Source: an uncultured Chloroflexia bacterium (lineage in GTDB: Bacteria > Chloroflexota > Dehalococcoidia > DSTF01 > WHTK01). Taken from it: a stretch of 64,000 nucleotides of DNA. The stretch covers positions 531,020 through 595,019 of the forward strand of contig CAVYAY010000001.1 of the NCBI GenBank assembly GCA_963766645.1, given 5' to 3'. The stretch's first letter is position 1. Each line of letters opens with the position of its first letter. The position numbers were made by a program, and so were the translations under genes. This document shows, piece by piece, positions 28,293 to 38,265 of the stretch. The notes below the pieces were generated by a model. That model did no database searches and was not told the origin of the DNA. It saw only the letters and a list, made by a program, of their open reading frames with translations.

Positions 28293-29489
28293 TCAGATCG
28301 GCCGCGCGGCGTGGATGATCTCTCGCGTCACCGTCGGGTTCCCCATGCACGGCACCAGGTCGCTCTGCCCGTTCGGCCCGCCAACCACGACGATCTGCAC
28401 CTGCTCCGGGTTCTGAAACTCCGGCACGAGCTCTTCCGGGTCCATGGCCTCGAGGCGTTGCTGAAGGTCAGCTGGTAGCGCTTCCCAGCCGACTGACATC
28501 GTCGCCAGTGCCTGCTTCAGGGGCCTCCGCGCGTTTTGCAGCAGGTACTCCCTGATCGAGGTCTTGGTGTGACCCGATTCGCTGAGGACACGAGCGTGGT
28601 CGGGCGCCAGCAGCATCACCTGGCAAGACCCTCCTTCGCCCTCCGTCCGGCTCGGTATCAAGCCCGAAGGACCGCCCGATGCGGACGCCTTGCCGGCCCA
28701 GCCCAGCAATATCTTCTCCGCGTCGGCCTGGTAGTTGTTGTAATGCACCATGCTGTTCGCCCCGTACACGGTGACCGTGCTAGCGCTCCGCTCGAAACCC
28801 TTTTCGACGTGCAGCGGCTCCCAGGGGTTCTGCGCCTCGTTCTCAGCCACGCACATGCTGTACTTGGTCGGGCTGCCGATGGTGTCCATGTCGCCACTGC
28901 CGGGGTAGCAGTGGCCTACGTTCATCAGGACCAGCCGGAGCGCCCGGCCCAGGACTGTATTCACCAGCGACGGTTTGCCGGGGCCGAGGGTGCAGCGCCC
29001 GTTGTTGATACCCAGCTCCTGGACAATTGGCCCGTTGATCACCAGCATCGTCGTCGTCGGGTTCGTCGACATCGTGATGCCGCGGACGGGAAACACCTCC
29101 TGCGGTGTTTCGAGGATCGCCTCCACCGCTGCGATCAGTACCGCGAGATGCTCCGGCCGGCAGCCGGCCATGACTGCATTGACCGCGACCTTCTCCACTG
29201 TCGCGGCACCGTAAAACGGCGCCAGCTTGCCGAGGACGAGGCCGGGCGGCAAGCGCACCGCGCGCAGCGCCGCTTCAACGCGCGCGCGTGTCGGCGGGAC
29301 GAGCGGGAACCCGTCGCCAATGCCGCGCTCGTTGAAATCGCCGTTGAATCGGTCCCACGCCTCGATCAAGTCTTCGCCGTGGTAGCGCTCCCGCCGTGCG
29401 GGCAGCGGTTCCCGCCCGCGCAGGTCTGCCTCCAGCTGAGCCACCGGGTTCAGAACATCTAGCGTGGCGGTATCACTGCGGGAGCTCAT
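28293..29489 (-). CDS. 'GDGFP...AMAGC' family protein, copy P2
   Basis: GIGDGFPLVPPT, ATVEKVAVNAVMAGCRPEHLAVLIAAVEAI, LGPGKPSLVNTVLGRALRLVLMNVGHCYP, NPWEPLHV. The N-terminus has LDVLNPVAQLEAD. Confidence 0.7.
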   Translation of the reverse strand: MSSRSDTATLDVLNPVAQLEADLRGREPLPARRERYHGEDLIEAWDRFNGDFNERGIGDGFPLVPPTRARVEAALRAVRLPPGLVLGKLAPFYGAATVEKVAVNAVMAGCRPEHLAVLIAAVEAILETPQEVFPVRGITMSTNPTTTMLVINGPIVQELGINNGRCTLGPGKPSLVNTVLGRALRLVLMNVGHCYPGSGDMDTIGSPTKYSMCVAENEAQNPWEPLHVEKGFERSASTVTVYGANSMVHYNNYQADAEKILLGWAGKASASGGPSGLIPSRTEGEGGSCQVMLLAPDHARVLSESGHTKTSIREYLLQNARRPLKQALATMSVGWEALPADLQQRLEAMDPEELVPEFQNPEQVQIVVVGGPNGQSDLVPCMGNPTVTREIIHAARPI

Positions 29490-29523
29490 GGCACAGTCCC
29501 AGCACCACAGGGGGAGGCCTGGT

Positions 29524-30027
29524 TCAGGACTCCCGGATCAGGCAAGCGATAATCGAATCGAGAGCCGCCTCGGCTGCCTCTTCCACTTGGCTGTCCGACA
29601 GGGTTGCCAGCAACCTTCGCAACTCCACGAACTCGTAGTTCTGCAGGCCCATCACCCGCGCCATAGAGCGTACGATGTTCGCATAGGCCCGGTTGCATAT
29701 TGTCACGCCCGGCTTGCCGTCCCGTTCGGCGGCATACATGTCGTGCAAACTGCACGACGCGCACGGCGCTCAATCGCCAATCGCAGTGATGAAGACGTCC
29801 GCACGGGGGATGAAGCCCTCAAGCAGCTTGCTGTCGGCCGGCCAGGTTGGCTCGAGCTTGCTTGCCCAGACTACATCCCGCAGGTTGAACCGCGCCCGGA
29901 GGAGCTCAACGACCTTCTCCAGAAAGACCTTGCTCCCATGCTTGTTATTGTCGAGTACGCCTAGCACGAGCCCGTCCAGGCTGACGGGACGTTCCGCGGC
30001 CAGTGTCTCGCCAGAGTCCCTCGACAA
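29524..30027 (-). CDS. Putative small selenoprotein, UxxCxxC variant (U-A-P-C-A-S-C) of the UGSC-type family (U3)
   Basis: ORF 29770..30027 ends ...FITAIGD-TGA (29772..29770). The same frame stays open for 81 more codons: APCASCSLHDMYAAERDGKPGVTICN...ACLIRES (ORF 29524..29748 is its tail). It is collinear with the other two UxxC genes. Confidence 0.65.
29740..29758 (-). promoter_or_regulatory. SECIS-like hairpin, 11 nt after the TGA
   Basis: mRNA GUCGUGC-AGUUU-GCACGAC: perfect 7-bp stem with a 5-nt loop. Confidence 0.55.
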
Positions 30028-30037
30028 AGCTATTTCC

Positions 30038-30283
30038 CTACCTGGCCGGGACGATCTCGACTTCCCTCACGTACGGCGCCTGCGCCTTGCACATCGCCTC
30101 GGCCATCTCCTTGAACGCGTCTGGCTCCATGATGCACTCGGGGCATTCCGCGTTCGTGCCCTCGTAATAACGGACGCGTAGCACGCCGGCTTCAACGTTC
30201 ATGGGCTCGACGATTACGCCCTCGTTGTCCTCCAGGGATGACCTCAGCGTGTTCAGAATGAGCTCGATTTTCTCGTCGATCAT
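30038..30283 (-). CDS. NifU/Nfu C-terminal-domain-like small protein with a CPEC motif
   Basis: 81 aa. IELILNTLRSSLEDNEGVIVEPMNVEAGVLRVRYYEGTNAECPECIM matches the Nfu pattern (dGG..elv....g.v.v...G.C..C). Confidence 0.6.
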   Translation of the reverse strand: MIDEKIELILNTLRSSLEDNEGVIVEPMNVEAGVLRVRYYEGTNAECPECIMEPDAFKEMAEAMCKAQAPYVREVEIVPAR

Positions 30284-30320
30284 GACGTCTCCAGACCAGC
30301 CGCAATTGCGGCCTTCTCTA

Positions 30321-32033
30321 TCAGGTTTCGATAACCTTGCTGATCGAGGCTGGCCCTGTAATGAACTCGCTCACACCGTGGTCGCCGCCAATTACGGCGA
30401 TGTGGATATGACTCGGGTTCGGGTCGCCCCGGATTGGTGTCTCCGGGTCCATGGCTGCGATACGGTCCTTGACCTCCTGCGGCACAGCTTCCCAACCGAT
30501 GAAAGCATACGTTGCGAGGAATTCACGAAGCGGTGTCGCGGGCGCGTTTTGCACCATGTACGCCTGCAGATCGGCTTTGCTGTAGCCGGCCGCGACCAGG
30601 CTGCGAGCGTGTTCCGGCCCCAGGATCAGGAGCTGCCCGCCACGGTCGGCATCACCCTCTGTGCGGCTAGGTATGCCCAACGCTCCGCCACCACCCGCGC
30701 CAGAGCCACCGCCACCCGCCGCACCACGGGCGGCCAGTACCTTGAGCAACGGGCCGACGTCGCCGGGGTCGCTGGCAAACGACGAGACGTCGCCTGCGGC
30801 AAACATCGTTACCACGCTTTGGTCCGCGTCAAAGCCCCGGCTGACGTGGAAAGGCTCACCCCAGGGGTTGGCGTCCTCATTCTCGGCGAGAACGGCGCTG
30901 TACTTGCCGGAAGTCCCAATCGTATCGAGGTCCAGAATCTCCGGATACGCCTGCGCCACGTTCATGATGATCAAACGCATCGCCCGGCCGATTACCGTGT
31001 TGACGCGGCCCGGCTTGCCAGGGCCCCACGCGTTCATTCCTGTGTGCAGTCCAAGCTGCTTCACAATCGGTCCGTTCAGCAGCATCAGCGGATAGCCCGC
31101 GCCGTGAGAAGACAGCAGGATCCGCAACGGAAACTGGCCGATCGGTGACTCCAGCATCGCCTGTATCGCGGCGATCAAGACCGGCATGTGAGCTGGCTCG
31201 CAGCCGGCCATCGCAGCGTTGATCGCGATCTTTTCGATGGTCGCCATGCCGTCGCCGGGCGGGAAGGGGCGTCCCACCACGTCCAGCGGCTGCCAGCGGT
31301 TGCTCACGTAGTCGAGGAACGGTTTTACACGTTCGGGAGTCGGTGGGAACAGCGGGAAACCATCGCCCCAACCTCGCTCCATAAACGCCTCGTTGAACGC
31401 CTCCCATGCGTTGAGCCGGCTGGAGGACCCAAAGGATTCCGTGGCCGCCCGCTGCAGTTCACGCACGACAGCTCCCGAAACGTCCGCCGGTGGCGTCACG
31501 AGCGCCTCCAGCACCTCGGGCAGCGATGCGTCCGCATCCCCGCTGGCCTGGGGCTCTGTCCGGCTTGTCAGGGTGTACGGGATCACGACTTGCACCAGGG
31601 AGGGGAAACCGAACACCTTTGACGATGCGGCAAAATCTGCTTCATAGCCGACCGACGTGATGGAGACCGTGGGGATCCCGAGCTTCTCAAGCTCTGTCAT
31701 GTCATACGCAAGGTACGACGTGCAGGACCCTCAATCGGCTGTCGCGCCGACCACGATGTCGCAGTGATCAGCCTCGATTGCCTCCAGCACCGATTTCTGG
31801 ATCGGACGCCTGCTGTCGTAGTGGAAGGTTTCCATACTTGGAAACTGCTGCTTCAGCCGAGTCTCAACCTGGTTCAGGTAGTGGATGCCACCGGGTTTGC
31901 GGTTCCAGTAGAAGCCGACCCGCTTACCTTCCAATGACCTGGGTCGAGTCGGCATCACAAGCGCCTCACCCAGGTCTGCAGCCAGCTGCGAAACCGGGTT
32001 CAGTACCTCAAATGCATCAGTCTCGGTAACCAT
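30321..32033 (-). CDS. Putative selenoprotein: UGSC-type domain fused to a 'GDGFP...AMAGC' domain (U2-P3), 570 aa if TGA is read as Sec
   Basis: ORF 31731..32033 ends ...DIVVGATAD-TGA (31733..31731). The same frame continues GSCTSYLAYDMTELEKLGIPTVSITSVGYE... into ORF 30321..31700, which carries GWGDGFPLFPPT, NAAMAGCEPAHMPVLIAAIQAM, WGPGKPGRVNTVIGRAMRLIIMNVAQAYP and NPWGEPFHV. Confidence 0.7.
31701..31719 (-). promoter_or_regulatory. SECIS-like hairpin, 11 nt after the TGA
   Basis: mRNA GUCGUAC-CUUGC-GUAUGAC: 7-bp stem (one G.U pair) with a 5-nt loop. Same spacing and geometry as the hairpin at 29740..29758. Confidence 0.55.
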
Positions 32034-32097
32034 CGTCTCCTCCTGCGCAGTAATCGGAACCGTCGCATTAGAATCTAGCCGCGCTCACGCGAAGCGG

Positions 32098-33081
32098 TCA
32101 AAAAGCATAACCATTTGGCTTGACCATTTCCCGGGACGAACGCGTCAGCTCATCTGTCTGCTGATGCCGCTCGAGGAGCCACGCCATGAACACGCGGGCT
32201 ACCGGCGACAAAGGCCTTCGCGGGTGGACAAGGTAAAGCTTCCTGTCAAAGCGAATGCCGCGGATCCGGACCGGAGCTGCGCCGACAACCTCGCCTCGAC
32301 TGAAGGGAAGGTATGAAATCCACGACATGCCGAAGCCGTGTGAAACCGCGTTGAGACAGGCCTGGGCCGAATTCAGCGCCATCACAACACGCCGCTGAGG
32401 ATGCTCGATACCCAACTGACGAAGTTTTGACGCCACCGTGGACACAACCGTCCCCACGTCCGCTGAAGACCTGTCACGGATGATGAACGGCTGTCCCGCA
32501 AGATCTTCCAGGTCGATCTCGCCGCAGGCCGCGAAGCGATGCGTCGACGGCACCGCCAGGACAACTTCGTCATCCGCCACCGGATAGCATCGAAGCGATT
32601 CGGAGGCGGGGCTGCGACCGATGAAGCCGAGTTCGGAGCCGCCCTCCAGAAGGTCTTCCTCGACGCCGTCGCTGTCTGAAATAAAGACGTGGGGCGCAAC
32701 GTCCGGGTTCTCGGCGCTAAACTCTCGCACCCAGCCCAGCACCAGGAAGTCGCAGAGCGTGGTGCTGGCGCCGATTCGCAAATCGCCCCTCGCTTCGCTG
32801 GATTCCCGTCGTATCTCCTCCATGACGTTGTCGAACCGGCCGAGCGTGTCGCGCGCGTCGGCCAGGAACTTCTCGCCCATGGTGGTCAGCTCCAGGTGCC
32901 TCGCATCGCGCTCGAACAGCGTCACGCCCAGGCGCCCCTCCAACTTCATAAGCTGCCGGCTGACTGCCGGCTGCGTAACGCCGAGACGCTTGGCCGCCGC
33001 CGTAAAGGTGCCCGTCTCCTCGGCTGCAATCAACGTCCGCATCTCGTTCAGCGAAACTTCGGCTTCCTTCCGGGTTCTCAT
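32098..33081 (-). CDS. LysR-family transcriptional regulator
   Basis: HTH LNEMRTLIAAEETGTFTAAAKRLGVTQPAVSRQLMKLEGRLGVTLFERDARHLELT. Start trimmed to ATG 33081, preceded by GGAGGC. Confidence 0.85.
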   Translation of the reverse strand: MRTRKEAEVSLNEMRTLIAAEETGTFTAAAKRLGVTQPAVSRQLMKLEGRLGVTLFERDARHLELTTMGEKFLADARDTLGRFDNVMEEIRRESSEARGDLRIGASTTLCDFLVLGWVREFSAENPDVAPHVFISDSDGVEEDLLEGGSELGFIGRSPASESLRCYPVADDEVVLAVPSTHRFAACGEIDLEDLAGQPFIIRDRSSADVGTVVSTVASKLRQLGIEHPQRRVVMALNSAQACLNAVSHGFGMSWISYLPFSRGEVVGAAPVRIRGIRFDRKLYLVHPRRPLSPVARVFMAWLLERHQQTDELTRSSREMVKPNGYAF

Positions 33082-33183
33082 GATAGCCTCCTGACGACGA
33101 CAGCCTATGCATTTCTGGCATATTGTAGCCAAGTTCCATACCTGATTGGTATGATGGCCGCTCGTCAGAGACCTCTCGGGTAC

Positions 33184-34128
33184 TTAGGAGTTCCTCTCGC
33201 CGCGATTCTTGAGATAACGGTAAGCGGCGACCGCCGCCGTTGCCCCGTCGCCGGCGACGGCAGCTAGCTGAGCCACCGAATTCTGGCGGATGTCGCCCGC
33301 TGCGAAGACCCCAGGCGCCGACGTCTGCATCATGATGTCGGTCACTATGTGGCCACTCGGGTCGAGATCGACAGCTCCCTGGAGGAACGTCGTATTCGGG
33401 TCAAGGCCCACGAAGATAAATACGCCGGCAAACTCCTGGGTCTCGCTCTTCCCGGTAGCGAGATCCACTAACCGGACGCCCGTCACAGCGTCGCTGCCGA
33501 TGATTTCTTCGACCTGGCGCCCATAGGCCACCTTCAGGTTTGGTTTTGCCTCGGCCTTCTCGACAATGGCCCGCTGCAATCGCAGCTCCGCGCCGCGGTG
33601 AAACAGCGTCACGTCAGACGCGAATTCGGTCAGCACGACGGCTTCGTCCACCGCCGCGTCGCCGCCGCCGACTACGCAGACCGACTGCCCGGAAAAGAAG
33701 GGACCATCGCAGGACGCGCAATGCGAGACGCCTTTCCCCACCAACTCCTCTTCGCCCGGCACGCCGAGGCTACGCAGCGTCGAACCCGAAGCGATGACCA
33801 GCGTCCGCCCGGTCACCTCGCTCTCATCGCACCTTACGAGCTTCTCATCGCCGCCAGTGTCGATCGAGAGGGCCGAATCAAAAACAAACTCGGCGCCCGC
33901 CATCTGGGCCTGCTCTTGCAGCATCGGCCCGAGTTCATACCCCGGGACGCCTTCTGGGAACCCCGGGAAGTTCTCAACTTTGTCGACGTTGATGATCTGA
34001 CCGCCCGAAGTGCCCCTGTCGATCACGGCGACACTTAGCCCGAAGCGGCTGGCCGTCAAAGCGGCCGTCAGTCCGGCGACGCCTGCGCCAATAACCAGCA
34101 AATCGTAGTCACTCATGTCCGTTCCCAC
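33184..34128 (-). CDS. trxB: Thioredoxin-disulfide reductase
   Basis: YDLLVIGAGVAGLTAALTASRFG (FAD GxGxxG), redox-active VSHCASCDGPFF, second dinucleotide site VVGGGDAAVDEA, C-terminal FAAGDI. Confidence 0.85.
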   Translation of the reverse strand: MGTDMSDYDLLVIGAGVAGLTAALTASRFGLSVAVIDRGTSGGQIINVDKVENFPGFPEGVPGYELGPMLQEQAQMAGAEFVFDSALSIDTGGDEKLVRCDESEVTGRTLVIASGSTLRSLGVPGEEELVGKGVSHCASCDGPFFSGQSVCVVGGGDAAVDEAVVLTEFASDVTLFHRGAELRLQRAIVEKAEAKPNLKVAYGRQVEEIIGSDAVTGVRLVDLATGKSETQEFAGVFIFVGLDPNTTFLQGAVDLDPSGHIVTDIMMQTSAPGVFAAGDIRQNSVAQLAAVAGDGATAAVAAYRYLKNRGERNS

Positions 34129-34164
34129 CGCTCACTTCCCAGTACATCAGATAGCCCGCCCTGA

Positions 34165-35881
34165 TTAGCCGCCCGAGCGCACCAGTTCGGGCCCAAGCTC
34201 TCGCACGTCCTGAATTGGGCCGGAGCTGTAGTCGCCAAGCCGAAGCTGCACCGACGCTTGCTGATCTCCGAAAGCCTCATGGCGAAGAACGACATTGCTC
34301 AGACCGCATTGCGATACCGCCGCCCGCGCTAACGAAAGCATCTGTGCATCGCCCGGGGCTCCCTTTAGCGTGGCGATGCAAGGTGGCGACAAGAAGCGCG
34401 CCAGCGCGCCACCGAAGCCTGCCGCCATGGCGCCGTACTCGCGGTGAAACTCGTCGAACGGCCAGAGAGCCCCAGTAGGCCCCTTCTCGGTAGACGGACT
34501 CGCCGGTGAGGTCCGCCAACCGTGTTAGGAACGCAGCCGCTTGAGCGTTCTGAGCCGGGAGCGTCAACGGACGACCCAACCCTCCCGGGCCTGTTGCGCT
34601 GATATCGGAGTAGCCTCCGGCCGGATTGCGGTGCTCCGAGACAACGTAGACCGCCAGGTCCAGGGCCCGCTGCAGTTGCGTCACATCGCCCAGCAGGGCA
34701 TACGCGTCCAGCATCGCCGACCCGGCTGCGACAGCATCTAGCAACAAACCGTAAATCAAAGGTTCGCCATCCCAGTAGTGAGACAGGCCGCCATCCTGCT
34801 GGTGAAGCGTGACCCAGAGCCACTCAAGGACTGTTACCGCGCGGTCTCGGCAGTCCTCTCGGCCCAGGATTAGCCATGCCTGCATGTATGCAGATGCGGC
34901 GCGGGCGTTCTGGTCGGCGTAGACGCAATCGTCGAGGTACGAGTCCAGCGGGCCGTCCACACCTTCCGGACCCGCAACGCGTCGGATGTAGTCCTGGCAG
35001 CCGAGGAACACGCCCTTGTCAGCGTCCAGTAGCGTCCCGTCCATGTCGTCGATCAGCTCCTCCGCGCAACCGCGGTAGAAGTCATCACCGGTCAATAAAA
35101 AGGTATGTAGGAAGTTGCGGAGCATCCCGGCCTGGTCGTCGAGCAGCTTCTCCGGGTGCGGCTCCTCCCAGTCCAGGCGAGACGAGTAGCGATAGTAGCC
35201 TCCTCCGCCTTCAGAGTGATACATGCTGCTGGAACGCATTTTCTCTAGCGTCAGCTGTACATGGGTTAGAAATAATCCCTCTCCGGTCACCTCGTACAGG
35301 TATAGGAAAAGGTCGTTCGCTTCGCTATGCGGGAACTTCGATTCGAGGCCGTATCCACCGTGTACTGGGTCGGCGAGGCCCTGCACCATGCCTGCGATCT
35401 CGCCCACGAGCGAGACGTTGAGACCCGCCCGGTTAGGGGTAGCCACGGGCCGGTCTGTCTGGGTTGCCCGTACCCGTTCGATTAGCTCTTCCTTCTTCTC
35501 GTGGTACGTGTTGGCGGCCTGCGCCAGGATGTCAACCATCGGCTTGGGACCGAGCGAGTTGAGCGTGAACATGTGGTCACCACCGGGTGTAAGAATCGCC
35601 AGGGTCGGCCAGCCGTTTTGCGTGTAGCGCGCGTCTATGTCCGGCCGGCGCGCTTCCTCCACGCGGATTGGCAGGAAGTTCGCGTTCAGCGATGCAATGA
35701 CCTCGTCGTCGGAGAACGTAACCTCGTCCATGCGCTGGCAGGCGCCACACCAGAAGGCCACAATCTCAAGGAAGACGGGCTTGTCCAGCTGTTTCGCTTC
35801 TGCGAAAGCGGCGTCGCCCCACGGCCGCCATTCGATCAGGTGAGCCTTGTTCGGCCGCGCCGAGAAGCGGAACTCCCTCAT
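34165..35881 (-). pseudogene. Thioredoxin-domain (DUF255 / YyaL-like) protein with a CGAC motif; one frameshift near 34459-34461
   Basis: N-terminus FLEIVAFWCGACQRMDEVTFSDDEVIASLNANFLPIRVEEARRPDIDARY. The body is like the six-hairpin-glycosidase-type domain of YyaL. The C-terminus continues in ORF 34165..34428 (FDEFHREYGAMAAGFGGALARFLSPP...). The span is 1717 nt. Confidence 0.65.
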
Positions 35882-35945
35882 GCCGCGGCCACGGAAGCGC
35901 GAGTAACCGATCGACCGTGATTAGGGCTGGCGAAGGGTCTCGCCG

Positions 35946-37064
35946 CTAGTCCCATTCCCAGTTGATCTTCTTGGTGACCATGCCGCCGCCGTCGCGCTTG
36001 GAGTGGTTGCCGCCCGTGAACAGGTAGCTCACATGGCCGCCGCCCCATCCACCACTCACCATGACCTGCATGTGTGACGGGTCGGTGATGTGATAGACCT
36101 TGGCCTCGCCGTCATTGAGGTCGACGCGATTAGCCCAGTGGTTCGCCGCTGTGTGGGTTTCCTGCGGCACCCCCGGAGACTGCAAATCGTGCTGCGCCTG
36201 CTTGTCTTTGACCAAGTGATACGTGTTCTCCCACACCGTGTCGCGGAAGCGTTCCTTGCTCCAGCCGGCGTCGGCAAGCATCTTCGCCGCATCCGGATTA
36301 AGTGCTATGACCGTGCAGGCGCCGCTGCGTAACTGTGCGATCCGGCGGCCCATATCGGCCACATTGCGCTCCAGGTCGGCGCCCGTCCTGACGAAGCCCG
36401 TACCCAGATACGTGCCGTGAGCGTCGAGCACCGTGACCGCACTGTCTTCAGCCTTCAGTCCAGCCGCGCTGACGTGGAAGGGCTCCCACGGGTTTCCGTC
36501 GTCGGTAGGCCGCTCGCAGATCAGATGGCCCCAACGGTCGGCCTGAGCGAAGACACACTTCGCCAGTTCCCCTGGCTTCGTCAGCCCGACATTCCACTGG
36601 ATCAGCCGTATCGCCCTCGCGATCGTGCCATTCGCACGGTTGCCGGAACCCGCCAGCGCGCCTTCGGCATAGTGGAAGCCGAGCTTCTTCACCACGGGTC
36701 CGCTGATGATTGCGAGCGGCGGACCCCCCACCGTACTGACTGAATTCAGGATGTGGTAGTCGTCATCCAGGATCGCCTCCATGGCGGTAATCACCACTGG
36801 CACGTACTCCGGCCGGCAGCCTGCCATCGCGCAGTTGATAGCGATCGCCTCCATCGTGACCTCGCCCTCACCAGGCATGAGGACACCGAGACTCTCGTCC
36901 GCCGGGCGACCGATGTAGTCGAGAATCTGCCGCACCCGCCGCTCGGTGGGCACGAAGACCGGGAAGCCATCCGTCCAGCCCTGTTCGAAGACGAAGTCGG
37001 TGAAATCGTCGATGTCTTCGATGCTGAACTTCTTCGCCGCCAGCTTGAAATCTTCCGCAACCAT
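35946..37064 (-). CDS. 'GDGFP...AMAGC' family protein, copy P4 (most divergent)
   Basis: GWTDGFPVFVPT, EAIAINCAMAGCRPEYVPVVITAMEAI, GNRANGTIARAIRLIQWNVG, NPWEPFHV. Start trimmed to ATG 37064, 2 nt after the TAA of the upstream UGSC gene. Confidence 0.7.
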   Translation of the reverse strand: MVAEDFKLAAKKFSIEDIDDFTDFVFEQGWTDGFPVFVPTERRVRQILDYIGRPADESLGVLMPGEGEVTMEAIAINCAMAGCRPEYVPVVITAMEAILDDDYHILNSVSTVGGPPLAIISGPVVKKLGFHYAEGALAGSGNRANGTIARAIRLIQWNVGLTKPGELAKCVFAQADRWGHLICERPTDDGNPWEPFHVSAAGLKAEDSAVTVLDAHGTYLGTGFVRTGADLERNVADMGRRIAQLRSGACTVIALNPDAAKMLADAGWSKERFRDTVWENTYHLVKDKQAQHDLQSPGVPQETHTAANHWANRVDLNDGEAKVYHITDPSHMQVMVSGGWGGGHVSYLFTGGNHSKRDGGGMVTKKINWEWD

Positions 37065-37066
37065 CG

Positions 37067-37708
37067 TTATTCCCCTGTTTCCTGCGAGGACGATTCCCGG
37101 CCGCGGCGCGGTTGCGAGCCCCGCTGACTCTCCTGCGGCTGCCACTTCTGAGCCGTCAGCATGTCTTTCAGCTTCATCGCCTGCTCGTGTGCCTTGAGCA
37201 CGACTTCCTCGTGTGACTCCGCGGACGGCTTGTCCGCCGGGTACGCGATCACGACATTGCTAGAGTCTTCGATGCCCAGCAACTTCAACTCCGTCCGAGC
37301 AAGCCTTTCGAAGTGCTCGTGGACCATAACCACGGAGGGGATACCTTCTTTTAGCATGTTTGCCGCGTCACGCACGGCTGCAGTACTGCAGGATCCTCAA
37401 GCCCCGACGCCGGTGATCGCATAGTCGATCTTCGGCGCCATCTCCTGGATATCTGAGATGGGGGATGGTATCCACGTGTTGCCGTGGAACTTACCGTCGC
37501 CCATGTCGTGTTTGTAGTGACGTTGGATGTCGCGGGGCTCGTAGAGCTCGGTCACCGCGTTTTCCATCTCCGGCCAGAACTTCGTCGAGATATCGTGCAT
37601 GCCCCAGAGGAACCCGACACGCTGGCCCTCAACTGTCTCAATCGTCTTCAACGGCTTCCGCTGCGTCGCTGCCGTTGAGCCTTCGGGAGAAAGGAACTCA
37701 ATGCTCAT
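37067..37708 (-). CDS. Putative UGSC-type selenoprotein (U1), 213 aa if TGA is read as Sec
   Basis: ORF 37397..37708 ends ...DYAITGVGA-TGA (37399..37397). The same frame continues GSCSTAAVRDAANMLKEGIPSVVMVHEHF... into ORF 37067..37375. Confidence 0.7.
37362..37378 (-). promoter_or_regulatory. SECIS-like hairpin, 18 nt after the TGA
   Basis: mRNA GCCGUG-CGUGA-CGCGGC: 6-bp stem (one G.U pair) with a 5-nt loop. An alternative smaller hairpin, CUGCA-GUAC-UGCAG, lies 5 nt after the TGA. Confidence 0.4.
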
Positions 37709-37987
37709 CTAAACCGCACCTTTCTTGATCGAGCGCCCGAGCGTTCCATGCACAACTGTAGGGTGGGCCGCGAAAGGCTCCAAAATTCATGCAAGCTGGT
37801 TATACGTTTCGTTGCGTCTTCGGCCGCTCGCTGCAGCCCACAGCCTACCGCGGCCGCGTGGTCGGGAGCGGCAGAGGCAGCGCCAGCCCGACCTTCTGCT
37901 GACGCGGCGTCCTGATTGCCTCGGAAGCGATCGCCACTTCCGCAGCCCCGGTGCCAATGCTGTCGAAGACAATGATCGCTCTGGGGT

Positions 37988-38095
37988 CTAGTGAATCGTC
38001 ACCGCGGAGAGTTCGTAACCCTCCCTGGCGGCCACGGCAGCCACGGTTTTTGAGTCCAGGCCACCCGAAAGCAAGACCATTCCAAGCTTCTTCAT
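37988..38095 (-). pseudogene. queC: 5' fragment (35 codons) of queC (7-cyano-7-deazaguanine synthase)
   Basis: MKKLGMVLLSGGLDSKTVAAVAAREGYELSAVTIH-stop. This is the SGGxDS PP-loop N-terminus typical of QueC, and no continuation exists in any frame. Confidence 0.6.
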
Positions 38096-38265
38096 CTGCT
38101 TCCCTCTACCAACGATGGCTGCGGTTGAATTTCCTGGCAGTCCAGTGTCTTCCCGCCGAAAGTCCCATCTCGGACTGAAGAAACATAGCCAGTCTCTTGA
38201 TACTGGTGGACGTCTTGTTGACGCGACCGCCATAGACCGCGAGGCCTAATTTAGATTCGAAATGT

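What the first reader, a model, noticed from the sequence alone, without database searches (positions are those of the whole stretch)
37067..37708. Second UGSC gene: ...AITGVGA-TGA-GSCSTAAVRDAANMLKEGIPSV...
- The motif and downstream context match the 31733 site (U-G-S-C, then D at +10, then GIP(S/T)V).
- The frame stays open for 109 more codons.
- It ends with a TAA 2 nt before the ATG of P4, which implies translational coupling of U1 and P4.
- The hairpin GCCGUG-CGUGA-CGCGGC starts 18 nt after the UGA. This geometry fits less well than at the other two sites.
Basis: seen in the sequence. Interest (0 to 1): 0.7.

Follow-up and report, generated by a model that had tools for sequence, protein, structure and literature searches.

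The report
Selenocysteine gene of the UGSC family
This is a real but unannotated selenoprotein gene of the already-described "UGSC" family: its in-frame TGA is read as selenocysteine with the help of a small conserved RNA hairpin, and it sits next to its usual partner gene of unknown function.

Summary
On the minus strand, an ORF (37708..37067) has an in-frame TGA (37399..37397) in the motif GVGA-U-GSC, 109 further sense codons, and a TAA 2 nt before the ATG of the next gene (P4).

The readthrough product matches Pfam PF24696 "UGSC family" (94.8 bits, cut-off 25) and, below its cut-off, NCBIfam NF041046 "UGSC family (seleno)protein". This family has been known from marine and freshwater metagenomes since 2005-2008.

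- **Stop codon:** in related loci from many phyla, the equivalent codon is TGA in 90 of 90 genuine sites, against about 49% TGA among ordinary stops. Protein conservation runs across it.
- **Cys forms:** rare full-length Cys forms exist.
- **Hairpin:** It is fully paired in 10 of 10 closer orthologues (G-C/G-U/A-U at the closing pair). It coincides with the only block of frozen synonymous sites in the gene (P about 0.002).
- **Sec machinery:** in seven relatives, tRNA-Sec lies beside the module, with SelB next to it in four.

Verdict: supported; a new member of a known kind. Biochemical function remains unknown. The partner protein P4 has no Pfam family and no PDB fold match.

The parts
37067..37708 (-). 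U1: the complete UGSC-family selenoprotein gene. ATG at 37708, Sec-UGA at 37399..37397, TAA at 37069..37067. It encodes 213 residues including U104.
   Evidence: Translation. Pfam PF24696 scores 94.8 bits across residues 5-179 in one stretch. Full-length conservation in 17 orthologues.
37397..37399 (-). In-frame TGA read as selenocysteine.
   Evidence: The equivalent codon is TGA at 90 of 90 genuine UGSC-type sites in the fetched loci, against about 49% TGA among ordinary stops. Cys occupies this position in the rare full-length homologues P0130, P0137 and P0128.
37388..37399 (-). U-G-S-C (UxxC) redox motif, TGA GGA TCC TGC.
   Evidence: G, S and C are invariant in alignment A4. In the structural model the motif sits between strand beta3 and the N-terminus of helix alpha3.
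37362..37378 (-). Putative bacterial SECIS core hairpin: 5' arm 37378..37373, loop CGUGA 37372..37368, 3' arm 37367..37362.
   Evidence: -8.4 kcal/mol, 6 bp, 5-nt loop with G at position 2, 24 nt between the UGA and the loop. Paired in 10 of 10 close orthologues, closing pair GC4/GU3/AU3. RNAalifold recovers it. Codons +8 to +10 are frozen at synonymous sites.
37716..37724 (-). Shine-Dalgarno-like GAAAGGTGC, 8-16 nt upstream of the U1 ATG.
   Evidence: Read directly from the sequence. Not otherwise tested.
35946..37064 (-). P4: a 372-aa partner protein of an unnamed family. Its ATG lies 2 nt after the U1 stop. It has an invariant Cys83 in the motif AINxxMAGC.
   Evidence: 2559 homologues, none with a Pfam domain, some fused to PF24696. 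No Pfam or NCBIfam hit. AF2 pLDDT 83 with no PDB fold match. 84 of 94 loci chosen through P4 carry a UGSC-type site, and 87 of 91 sites are on the same strand.
34277..35881 (-). Context: a DUF255/Thioredox_DsbH thioredoxin-domain protein immediately downstream of P4.
   Evidence: Pfam. Same position in the closest orthologous loci.
33184..34128 (-). Context: a thioredoxin-reductase-like pyridine-nucleotide disulphide oxidoreductase.
   Evidence: Pfam Pyr_redox_2. Homologues flank the module in L093, L003 and L056, and 6 of 129 flanking ORFs are of this kind.
30321..32033 (-). Paralogous module 2: a UGSC domain (Sec-UGA at 31733..31731) fused in frame to a P4-like domain.
28293..30027 (-). Paralogous module 3: U3 (30027..29524, UGA at 29772..29770, motif U-A-P-C) followed by a P4-like gene (29489..28293).

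Best explanation
The gene at 37708..37067 (minus strand) encodes a 213-residue selenoprotein of the UGSC family.

How the UGA is decoded. The ribosome reaches the UGA at 37399..37397. The mRNA hairpin 18 nt downstream (GCCGUG-CGUGA-CGCGGC), acting as a bacterial SECIS, recruits SelB-GTP-Sec-tRNA(Sec). Selenocysteine is inserted and translation continues for 109 more codons.

What the protein probably does. The product is a flavodoxin-like alpha/beta protein. Its U-G-S-C (UxxC) motif lies at the N-terminus of a helix, where it most likely cycles between selenol/thiol and selenenylsulfide. It most likely works with the co-oriented partner P4, which has one invariant Cys and is fused to UGSC in a paralogue 4 kb away. 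In this cluster, electrons plausibly come from the adjacent thioredoxin-type proteins.

Shown: family membership, conservation of the TGA, the Sec/Cys pairing, conservation of the hairpin, RNA-level constraint on the hairpin codons, and the UGSC-P4 linkage.

Inferred: actual Sec insertion in this organism, the SelB-hairpin contact, the redox chemistry, the partnership with P4, and the electron source.
For: Family membership
- Pfam PF24696 scores 94.8 bits against a gathering score of 25. NF041046 is the best NCBIfam hit.
- The family is described in the literature as Sec-containing with a UxxC motif: 255 Sec forms against 21 Cys forms in GOS (PMC2398784; PMC13188914).

The TGA
- TGA occurs at 90 of 90 genuine sites. 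The single TAG is a chance regex match.
- Protein conservation runs the full length on both sides of the TGA in 17 orthologues.
- Gene callers split the gene everywhere into a stub of about 104 aa plus a C-terminal fragment.
- Cys-form full-length homologues exist.

The hairpin
- It meets the four published bSECIS criteria (criteria; values).
- All 6 bp are paired in 10 of 10 orthologues, down to 36% protein identity. Three pair types occur at pair 28-44 and two at pair 32-40. Slid controls give 19-49% paired against 93% for the 7-pair helix tested.
- RNAalifold predicts it.
- Both wobble-wobble pairs, C30-G42 and G33-C39, are invariant. GTG-CGT-GAC shows zero synonymous variation, while other conserved codons carry 1.3-1.9 bits (permutation P=0.002).

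Sec machinery
- tRNA-Sec lies next to the P4-UGSC module in 7 loci, with SelB beside it in 4.

Fold
- AF2 model pLDDT 90.6. The U/C position sits between beta3 and alpha3. Foldseek hits are flavodoxin-like domains.

Partner
- 84 of 94 loci chosen through P4 carry a UGSC site. Fusions occur in the window and in P0080 and P0093.
Against: - No tRNA-Sec, selA, selB or selD lies in the 64-kb window. The rest of the source genome could not be searched, so Sec competence of this organism is inferred.
- The hairpin by itself is not statistically unusual in this 62% GC sequence: the base rate is 7.4% and the fold z-score is about 0.
- The exact stem is broken in the 7 more distant U1-type genes. On all 18 sequences RNAalifold prefers a different stem.
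- The covarying closing pair also changes the encoded amino acids (Ala/Thr, Ala/Val). The A-U sequences may share ancestry, so independent compensatory events are few.
- The NCBIfam equivalog cut-off (125 bits) is not reached, at 66 bits.
- No biochemical function has been shown for any family member.
Confidence: 0.88

Rival explanations
1. The TGA is an ordinary stop. Two separate small genes, of 103 aa and about 100 aa starting at GTG 37375, encode two polypeptides that may associate.
For: Automatic gene callers annotate it this way in every locus. An in-frame GTG exists 8 codons after the TGA.
Against: - The seven codons between the TGA and that GTG encode the most conserved residues of the family, the invariant G-S-C.
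- The two halves are always in the same frame.
- The stop is TGA in 90 of 90 sites, although TGA is only about 49% of ordinary stops.
- Full-length Cys forms exist.
- One Pfam domain spans the junction.
Confidence: 0.03
2. Sec is inserted, but the functional SECIS is not the reader's hairpin. Alternatives are the stem UC.UGCA/UGCG.GA (columns 13-19/32-38 of A2), or the CUGCA-GUAC-UGCAG hairpin 6 nt after the UGA together with a larger composite structure.
For: - RNAalifold on all 18 U1-type sequences picks the 13-19/32-38 stem, which is paired in almost all of them.
- The small upstream UGCA/UGCA hairpin is also predicted in the close group.
- The literature says bacterial SECIS elements are heterogeneous.
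Against: - The alternative stem is built almost wholly from positions fixed by invariant amino acids (S, C, V, R, D). It scores only -1.4 to -2.0 kcal/mol and has a 12-nt loop, outside the 3-9 nt criterion.
- The PstI-palindrome hairpin exists only in the three closest sequences and scores -4.6 kcal/mol.
Confidence: 0.12
3. The gene is a pseudogene or an assembly error, or this organism reassigns UGA to another amino acid (code 4 or 25).
For: One database fragment (P0136) shows Gly at the U position, as a code-25 translation would.
Against: - An independent assembly has the identical sequence (L001).
- The TGA is conserved across phyla.
- TGA is the most common terminator of long ORFs in the window, 36 of 79, so it is not reassigned.
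- There are no frameshifts and the length is conserved.
Confidence: 0.01

Closest known systems
UGSC-containing selenoprotein family (Pfam PF24696; NCBIfam NF041046; Zhang & Gladyshev, Sargasso Sea/GOS selenoproteomes, PMC2398784)
   Same: Same U-G-S-C motif and the same domain (94.8 bits). The family is overwhelmingly in Sec form with rare Cys forms. The habitat type is environmental MAGs. The association or fusion with a second conserved Cys-containing domain is also shared.
   Different: It scores below the NCBIfam equivalog cut-off (66 against 125 bits). It belongs to a distinct 'GVGA-U-GSC..AVRD' subgroup with an insert of about 9 residues (DxGDGKFxG) and a SECIS loop at 24 nt rather than the family's usual 19 nt.
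Consensus bacterial SECIS model (bSECISearch; criteria quoted in PMC13188914, Fig. 2A) and the E. coli fdhF paradigm
   Same: A stem-loop inside the coding region just 3' of the UGA: 6-bp stem, 5-nt loop, G followed by U at loop positions 2-3, 24-nt spacing, -8.4 kcal/mol. All four criteria are met.
   Different: There is no sequence similarity to fdhF. No curated Rfam family matches. SelB binding was not tested.
'UGSC/Unknown_1' fusion proteins noted in the GOS study (PMC2398784, Fig. S1A)
   Same: The window contains such a fusion (32033..30321), and the U1-P4 pair is its split version. P4 has one invariant Cys, which fits the paper's remark that the fused domains carry a conserved Cys.
   Different: Identity of P4 with 'Unknown_1' could not be verified, because the figure panel is held only as an image.
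Thioredoxin-fold UxxC/CxxU selenoproteins (Trx-like, Prx-like, SelW-like)
   Same: A two-residue-spaced Sec/Cys pair sits at the N-terminus of a helix after a beta-strand. A redox role is presumed.
   Different: The predicted fold is a five-fold beta-alpha flavodoxin-like sandwich, not a thioredoxin fold. No Trx, Grx or Prx structure appears among the 50 Foldseek hits listed.

Membership tests
UGSC family (Pfam PF24696) | Whole-protein score at or above Pfam's gathering score (25 bits) | tested here: met
   94.8 bits, E 8.8e-27. Residues 5-179 match profile positions 2-168 of 172 in a single stretch that spans the U position.
UGSC family (seleno)protein, NCBIfam NF041046 (equivalog) | Score at or above the curated equivalog cut-off (125 bits) | tested here: not met
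   66.1 bits, E 3.3e-18. It is the best NCBIfam hit but falls below the cut-off, so this is a divergent subgroup and not an equivalog by NCBI's rule.
UGSC family | U-G-S-C motif with U encoded by an in-frame TGA | tested here: met
   TGA GGA TCC TGC at 37399..37388.
Selenoprotein (standard comparative criteria) | TGA aligned with TGA or Cys in homologues, with conservation on both sides | tested here: met
   90 of 90 sites are TGA. The Cys forms are P0130, P0137 and P0128. Both flanks are conserved in 17 orthologues.
Bacterial SECIS consensus model | Apical loop of 3-9 nt and upper stem of 4-16 bp | tested here: met
   Loop CGUGA is 5 nt and the stem is 6 bp. Criteria taken.
Bacterial SECIS consensus model | G within the first two loop positions (usually followed by G or U) | tested here: met
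   The loop C-G-U-G-A has G at position 2 followed by U. 83 of 87 family sites share this feature.
Bacterial SECIS consensus model | 16-37 nt between the UGA and the apical loop | tested here: met
   24 nt. The family mode is 19 nt (47 of 87 sites), and 24 nt occurs at 13 sites, which include the U1-type orthologues printed (window, L085, L003, L090).
Bacterial SECIS consensus model | Minimum free energy at or below -7.5 kcal/mol | tested here: met
   -8.4 kcal/mol for the 17-nt hairpin.
Bacterial SECIS (functional definition) | Binds SelB and is required for UGA decoding | not testable with these tools
   Needs a reporter or binding assay. Only conservation and covariation are available.
Sec-decoding organism | selA, selB, selC (tRNA-Sec) and selD present in the genome | not testable with these tools
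   None was found in the window. The remainder of the 917-kb contig and genome could not be fetched. In relatives, selC (7 loci) and selB (4 loci) adjoin the module.
Thioredoxin-fold oxidoreductases | Thioredoxin fold (beta-alpha-beta ... beta-beta-alpha core) | tested here: not met
   The AF2 model of Cys-form homologue P0130 (pLDDT 90.6) has beta-alpha repeated five times. The Foldseek hits listed are flavodoxin-like domains with TM 0.45-0.5. The test used a homologue 37% identical to U1, not U1 itself.

The most novel reading that the evidence does not exclude
UGSC and P4 together form an obligate two-component (sometimes fused) selenoenzyme whose catalytic partner has a fold with no counterpart in the PDB and no Pfam family. 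In some lineages (six alphaproteobacterial MAGs and one Acidimicrobiaceae MAG) it is clustered with selB and selC, which suggests it is a principal reason those bacteria keep the selenocysteine trait. In this genome, three diverged modules plus a thioredoxin-reductase-like flavoprotein and a DUF255 thioredoxin protein would form a dedicated selenium-dependent redox island under a LysR regulator.
Probability: 0.35. Interest if true: 0.55.

Novelty: new member of a known kind. Interest (0 to 1): 0.3.

Why it matters
For annotation, the gene is split into two meaningless hypothetical ORFs in every public assembly examined. Recognising the Sec codon restores a 213-residue protein, and the same correction applies at the two other sites in this window.

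For biology, the UGSC family is one of the most abundant selenoprotein families in aquatic metagenomes, yet it has no known function. This work adds four leads:

- It is almost always paired with one specific uncharacterised protein family of more than 2500 members.
- Its fold is predicted to be flavodoxin-like and not thioredoxin-like.
- The pair sometimes sits next to selB and tRNA-Sec.
- One genome can hold three diverged modules beside thioredoxin-system genes.

These give concrete handles for biochemical characterisation. They do not change what is known about Sec decoding.

Tried and rejected
- **Word-indexed search with the U-to-C readthrough product:** no hits, because database entries are truncated at the UGA.
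- **Exhaustive HMMER with the edited sequence:** It was re-run with the post-UGA fragment.
- **Metagenome scan with P4:** only 3 loci. Close orthologues were obtained by exact look-ups instead. Two of those gave no DNA.
- **Rfam, at gathering and permissive thresholds:** no SECIS family. The only hit was a spurious Xist match at E 1.7.
- **Single-sequence folding significance:** uninformative, z about 0.
not better than shuffles. It holds only in the closer subgroup.
- **Foldseek of P4 against the PDB:** no meaningful match. Class I fumarate hydratase scores TM about 0.2 and was rejected.
- **Checking whether 'Unknown_1' of the GOS paper is P4:** the figure panel is held only as an image.
- **Organism name through cluster look-ups:** no names returned.
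- **Promoter and terminator scan around the gene:** nothing above the shuffled expectation.
- **Flanking-gene profile across 129 neighbours:** no consistent metabolic partner.

Full report
**1. The observation**

The feature lies on the minus strand. An ORF starts at ATG 37708 and reaches an in-frame TGA at 37399..37397. It then continues in the same frame for 109 sense codons to a TAA at 37069..37067. Two nucleotides (CG) later comes the ATG (37064) of the next gene, P4.

The peptide around the TGA is ...IDYAITGVGA-U-GSCSTAAVRDAANMLKEGIPSVVMV. The site at 31733 reads ...VVGATAD-U-GSCTSYLAYDMTELEKLGIPTV, with the same D at +10 and GIP(S/T)V at +18. A third site at 29772 has U-A-P-C.

The hairpin GCCGUG-CGUGA-CGCGGC occupies 37378..37362 and begins 18 nt after the UGA.

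Neither the 12-nt DNA motif nor the hairpin is significant alone:

- The motif gives 2 matches against 1.03 expected.
- The 76-nt fold has a z-score of about 0.
- 7.4% of the window's 1759 TGA triplets are followed by a hairpin that meets the published SECIS criteria.

**2. What the gene is**

With U replaced by C, the product matches Pfam PF24696 'UGSC family' at 94.8 bits (gathering score 25). The match is a single stretch that spans the U position. Its best NCBIfam hit is NF041046 'UGSC family (seleno)protein', at 66 bits against a cut-off of 125.

The family is well documented:

- 'UGSC-containing protein' was one of the most abundant selenoprotein families in the Global Ocean Sampling data, with 255 Sec forms and 21 Cys forms and a UxxC motif. 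It was more frequent in non-marine samples (PMC2398784).
- It is listed in a 2026 review with function still uncharacterised (PMC13188914).
- It was found in 26 of about 5200 genomes (PMC5029168).
- It occurs with UAG-encoded Sec in Geodermatophilaceae (PMC5330540).

**3. Comparative test of the TGA**

The partner protein P4 has more than 2500 homologues. I used it to fetch 94 loci from genomes, metagenomes and read assemblies.

- **Linkage:** 84 of the 94 loci carry a UGSC-type site, and 87 of 91 sites are on the same strand as the P4 homologue.
- **Stop codon:** the codon at the U position is TGA in 90 of 91 regex matches. The one TAG has an unrelated context and is a chance match. Ordinary long ORFs in the same sequences end in TGA only about 49% of the time.
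- **Protein conservation:** seventeen U1-type orthologues, at 77% down to about 30% identity, are conserved along their whole length on both sides of the TGA. G-S-C immediately after it is invariant.
- **Gene calls:** gene callers split all of them into a stub of about 104 aa and a C-terminal fragment. The 120 database hits listed (of 163) are almost all N-terminal stubs of about 94 aa. Only three are full-length proteins, and these carry Cys at the U position (P0130, P0137, P0128).

This is the classical Sec/Cys signature. It excludes a true terminator with a separate downstream start. The first in-frame start after the TGA is a GTG 8 codons later, which would discard the invariant GSC.

**4. 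The SECIS hairpin**

The published consensus model requires four things (PMC13188914):

- a 3-9 nt loop on a 4-16 bp stem;
- a G in the first two loop positions;
- 16-37 nt between the UGA and the loop;
- a minimum free energy of -7.5 kcal/mol or lower.

The U1 hairpin has a 5-nt loop (CGUGA), a 6-bp stem, 24-nt spacing and -8.4 kcal/mol. It meets all four.

In ten non-identical closer orthologues (77-36% protein identity), all six pairs form in all ten sequences:

- The closing pair is G-C in 4, G-U in 3 and A-U in 3, and never a mismatch.
- The fifth pair is U-A in 6 and U-G in 4.
- For the 7-pair helix tested (the six pairs plus a 27-45 extension), sliding the 3' arm by 1-3 nt drops pairing from 93% to 19-49%.
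- Only 3 of 500 column shuffles reach the observed pairing or covariation score.
- RNAalifold predicts the same stem without being given it, at -11.5 kcal/mol.

The constraint is at the RNA level:

- Across the 24 fully conserved degenerate codon columns of the gene, only four show no synonymous variation. Three of them are the consecutive codons +8, +9 and +10 (GTG CGT GAC) inside the hairpin.
- Neighbouring Gly, Val, Ala and Pro codons carry 1.3-1.9 bits (permutation P = 0.002).
- Two of the six pairs (C30-G42 and G33-C39 in alignment A3) join two wobble positions, and both are invariant.

Caveats:

- The covarying closing pair also changes amino acids.
- The A-U sequences may be a clade.
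- In seven more distant U1-type genes (Betaproteobacteria and some Dehalococcoidia) this exact stem is broken and other GC-rich hairpins replace it.
- On all 18 sequences, RNAalifold picks a weak alternative stem (-1.4 kcal/mol) made of positions already fixed by invariant amino acids, so it carries no independent evidence.

Family-wide, across 87 distinct sites, the loop lies 19 nt from the UGA in 47 sites and 24 nt in 13 sites. The 24-nt class includes the U1-type orthologues printed in that output (window, L085, L003, L090). A G occupies the first two loop positions in 83 of 87 sites. By the same strict test, the simple hairpin at the 31733 site fails.

**5. Sec machinery**

The window has only tRNA-Glu and tRNA-Gln. 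It has no Rfam-detectable Sec element and no sel gene among the ORFs scanned. I could not search the rest of the source genome, which is a contig of 916,649 bp.

In relatives, ARAGORN finds tRNA-Sec (anticodon TCA) 550-700 nt upstream of the P4 homologue in six alphaproteobacterial MAGs (L024, L044, L047, L053, L058, L062). It also finds one just downstream of the UGSC gene in an Acidimicrobiaceae MAG (L032). The ORF preceding the tRNA in L024, L044, L058 and L062 is SelB, with the domains GTP_EFTU, Beta-barrel_SelB and SelB-wing_3. This supports Sec decoding of the family and shows physical linkage of the module to the decoding machinery. It is not proof for this organism.

**6. Fold and likely mechanism**

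An AlphaFold2 model of the full-length Cys form P0130 (37% identical to U1) is confident, with pLDDT 90.6 and pTM 0.85. It shows five beta-alpha units. The U/C residue lies in the loop between strand 3 and the N-terminus of helix 3.

Foldseek against the PDB returns flavodoxin-like alpha/beta/alpha domains at TM 0.45-0.5: the flavodoxin domain of flavodiiron proteins, NQO1, RpiB and lumazine synthase. No thioredoxin-fold protein is among the 50 matches listed. The 2008 suggestion of a 'Trx-like fold' is thus not supported by the model. The helix-N-terminal UxxC placement is still the usual one for a redox-active pair.

P4 has no Pfam or NCBIfam family. It has an invariant Cys83 in AINxxMAGC and a conserved GW(T/S)DGxPVxPPT motif. 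Its model is confident (pLDDT 83, pTM 0.86), but nothing in the PDB exceeds TM of about 0.2.

Three observations argue that UGSC and P4 act together:

- Near-obligate adjacency.
- The in-frame fusion at 32033..30321.
- Fused database members P0080 and P0093.

The GOS paper noted a 'UGSC/Unknown_1' fusion. P4 is probably Unknown_1, but I could not verify this.

In the window, U1-P4 is followed by a DUF255/Thioredox_DsbH protein, a thioredoxin-reductase-like flavoprotein and a LysR regulator. The DUF255 gene keeps this position in the closest orthologous loci. TrxB-like genes flank a minority of other loci. Otherwise the neighbourhoods are heterogeneous.

My best mechanistic reading is a selenol/thiol redox centre on UGSC that serves or is served by P4, and that is reduced here by a thioredoxin-type system. 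This is an inference.

**7. Translational coupling**

The 2-nt gap and an AGGGGA 8-13 nt before the P4 ATG make coupling plausible in this genome. In orthologues, however, the spacing ranges from a 4-nt overlap (L087) to about 145 nt (L089). Only co-directional adjacency is conserved.

**8. Verdict**

This is a previously unannotated member of a known selenoprotein family, with a conventional bacterial SECIS of a subgroup-specific geometry. It is not a new kind of element.

The modest interest lies in four by-products: the tight UGSC-P4 module, P4's unmatched fold, the selB-selC linkage in some lineages, and the three-module redox cluster in this window.

Noticed in passing
window 28293-37708 (minus strand): A 9.4-kb co-directional run of genes: U1, P4, a DUF255 thioredoxin-domain protein, a TrxB-like flavoprotein, a LysR regulator, a UGSC~P4 fusion, an 81-aa ORF with Cys motifs, U3, and a P4-like gene. 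That makes three diverged Sec modules in one cluster.
   Followed up: partly
window 35946-37064 (minus); alignment A1: The P4 family has more than 2500 members across many phyla, no Pfam or NCBIfam model, and one invariant Cys (AINxxMAGC). Its AF2 model is confident (pLDDT 83), but the best PDB fold match has TM of only about 0.2. It is an uncharacterised fold that is almost always next to a UGSC gene.
   Followed up: partly
L024 3324-3418, L044 3327-3422, L047 3380-3474, L053 3229-3323, L058 3361-3456, L062 3335-3430, L032 5937-6032: tRNA-Sec (anticodon TCA) lies directly beside the P4-UGSC module in six alphaproteobacterial MAGs and one Acidimicrobiaceae MAG. SelB is the preceding ORF in L024, L044, L058 and L062, giving a selB-selC-P4-UGSC cluster.
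   Followed up: partly
window 31664-31733 (minus): The simple hairpin after the UGA of the fusion gene (GUCGUAC-CUUGC-GUAUGAC, -6.3 kcal/mol, no G in the first two loop positions) fails the published bSECIS criteria in a strict perfect-stem test.
   Followed up: partly
window 29770-29772 (minus): The third site has U-A-P-C instead of U-G-S-C. It is followed 11 nt later by a strong 8-bp hairpin with a GUU loop (-10.9 kcal/mol).
   Followed up: partly
window 30038-30283 (minus): An 81-aa ORF with a CPEC motif and a further Cys sits between the fusion gene and U3. It has no Pfam hit at E<=0.001, and its role is unknown.
   Followed up: no
window 37988-38233 (minus): There is a queC-like N-terminal remnant (MKKLGMVLLSGGLDSKT...), called as a 35-aa product with a weak PF06508 hit in L001. 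It stops after about 35 residues, and the space before U1 is too short for a full QueC. It is probably a truncated pseudogene.
   Followed up: no
protein P0136: A 100-aa database fragment shows Gly at the U position (GLGA-G-GSC). This is more likely a gene call made under genetic code 25 (UGA = Gly) than a real Gly variant.
   Followed up: no
window 37070-37150 (minus): The U1 C-terminal tail QKWQPQESQRGSQPRRGRESSSQETGE is low-complexity and is not conserved in orthologues, which end 10-25 residues earlier.
   Followed up: partly
model m061dcb5b52ae (P0130): The predicted UGSC fold is flavodoxin-like (beta-alpha repeated five times). This contradicts the tentative 'Trx-like fold' in the 2008 GOS paper.
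   Followed up: yes
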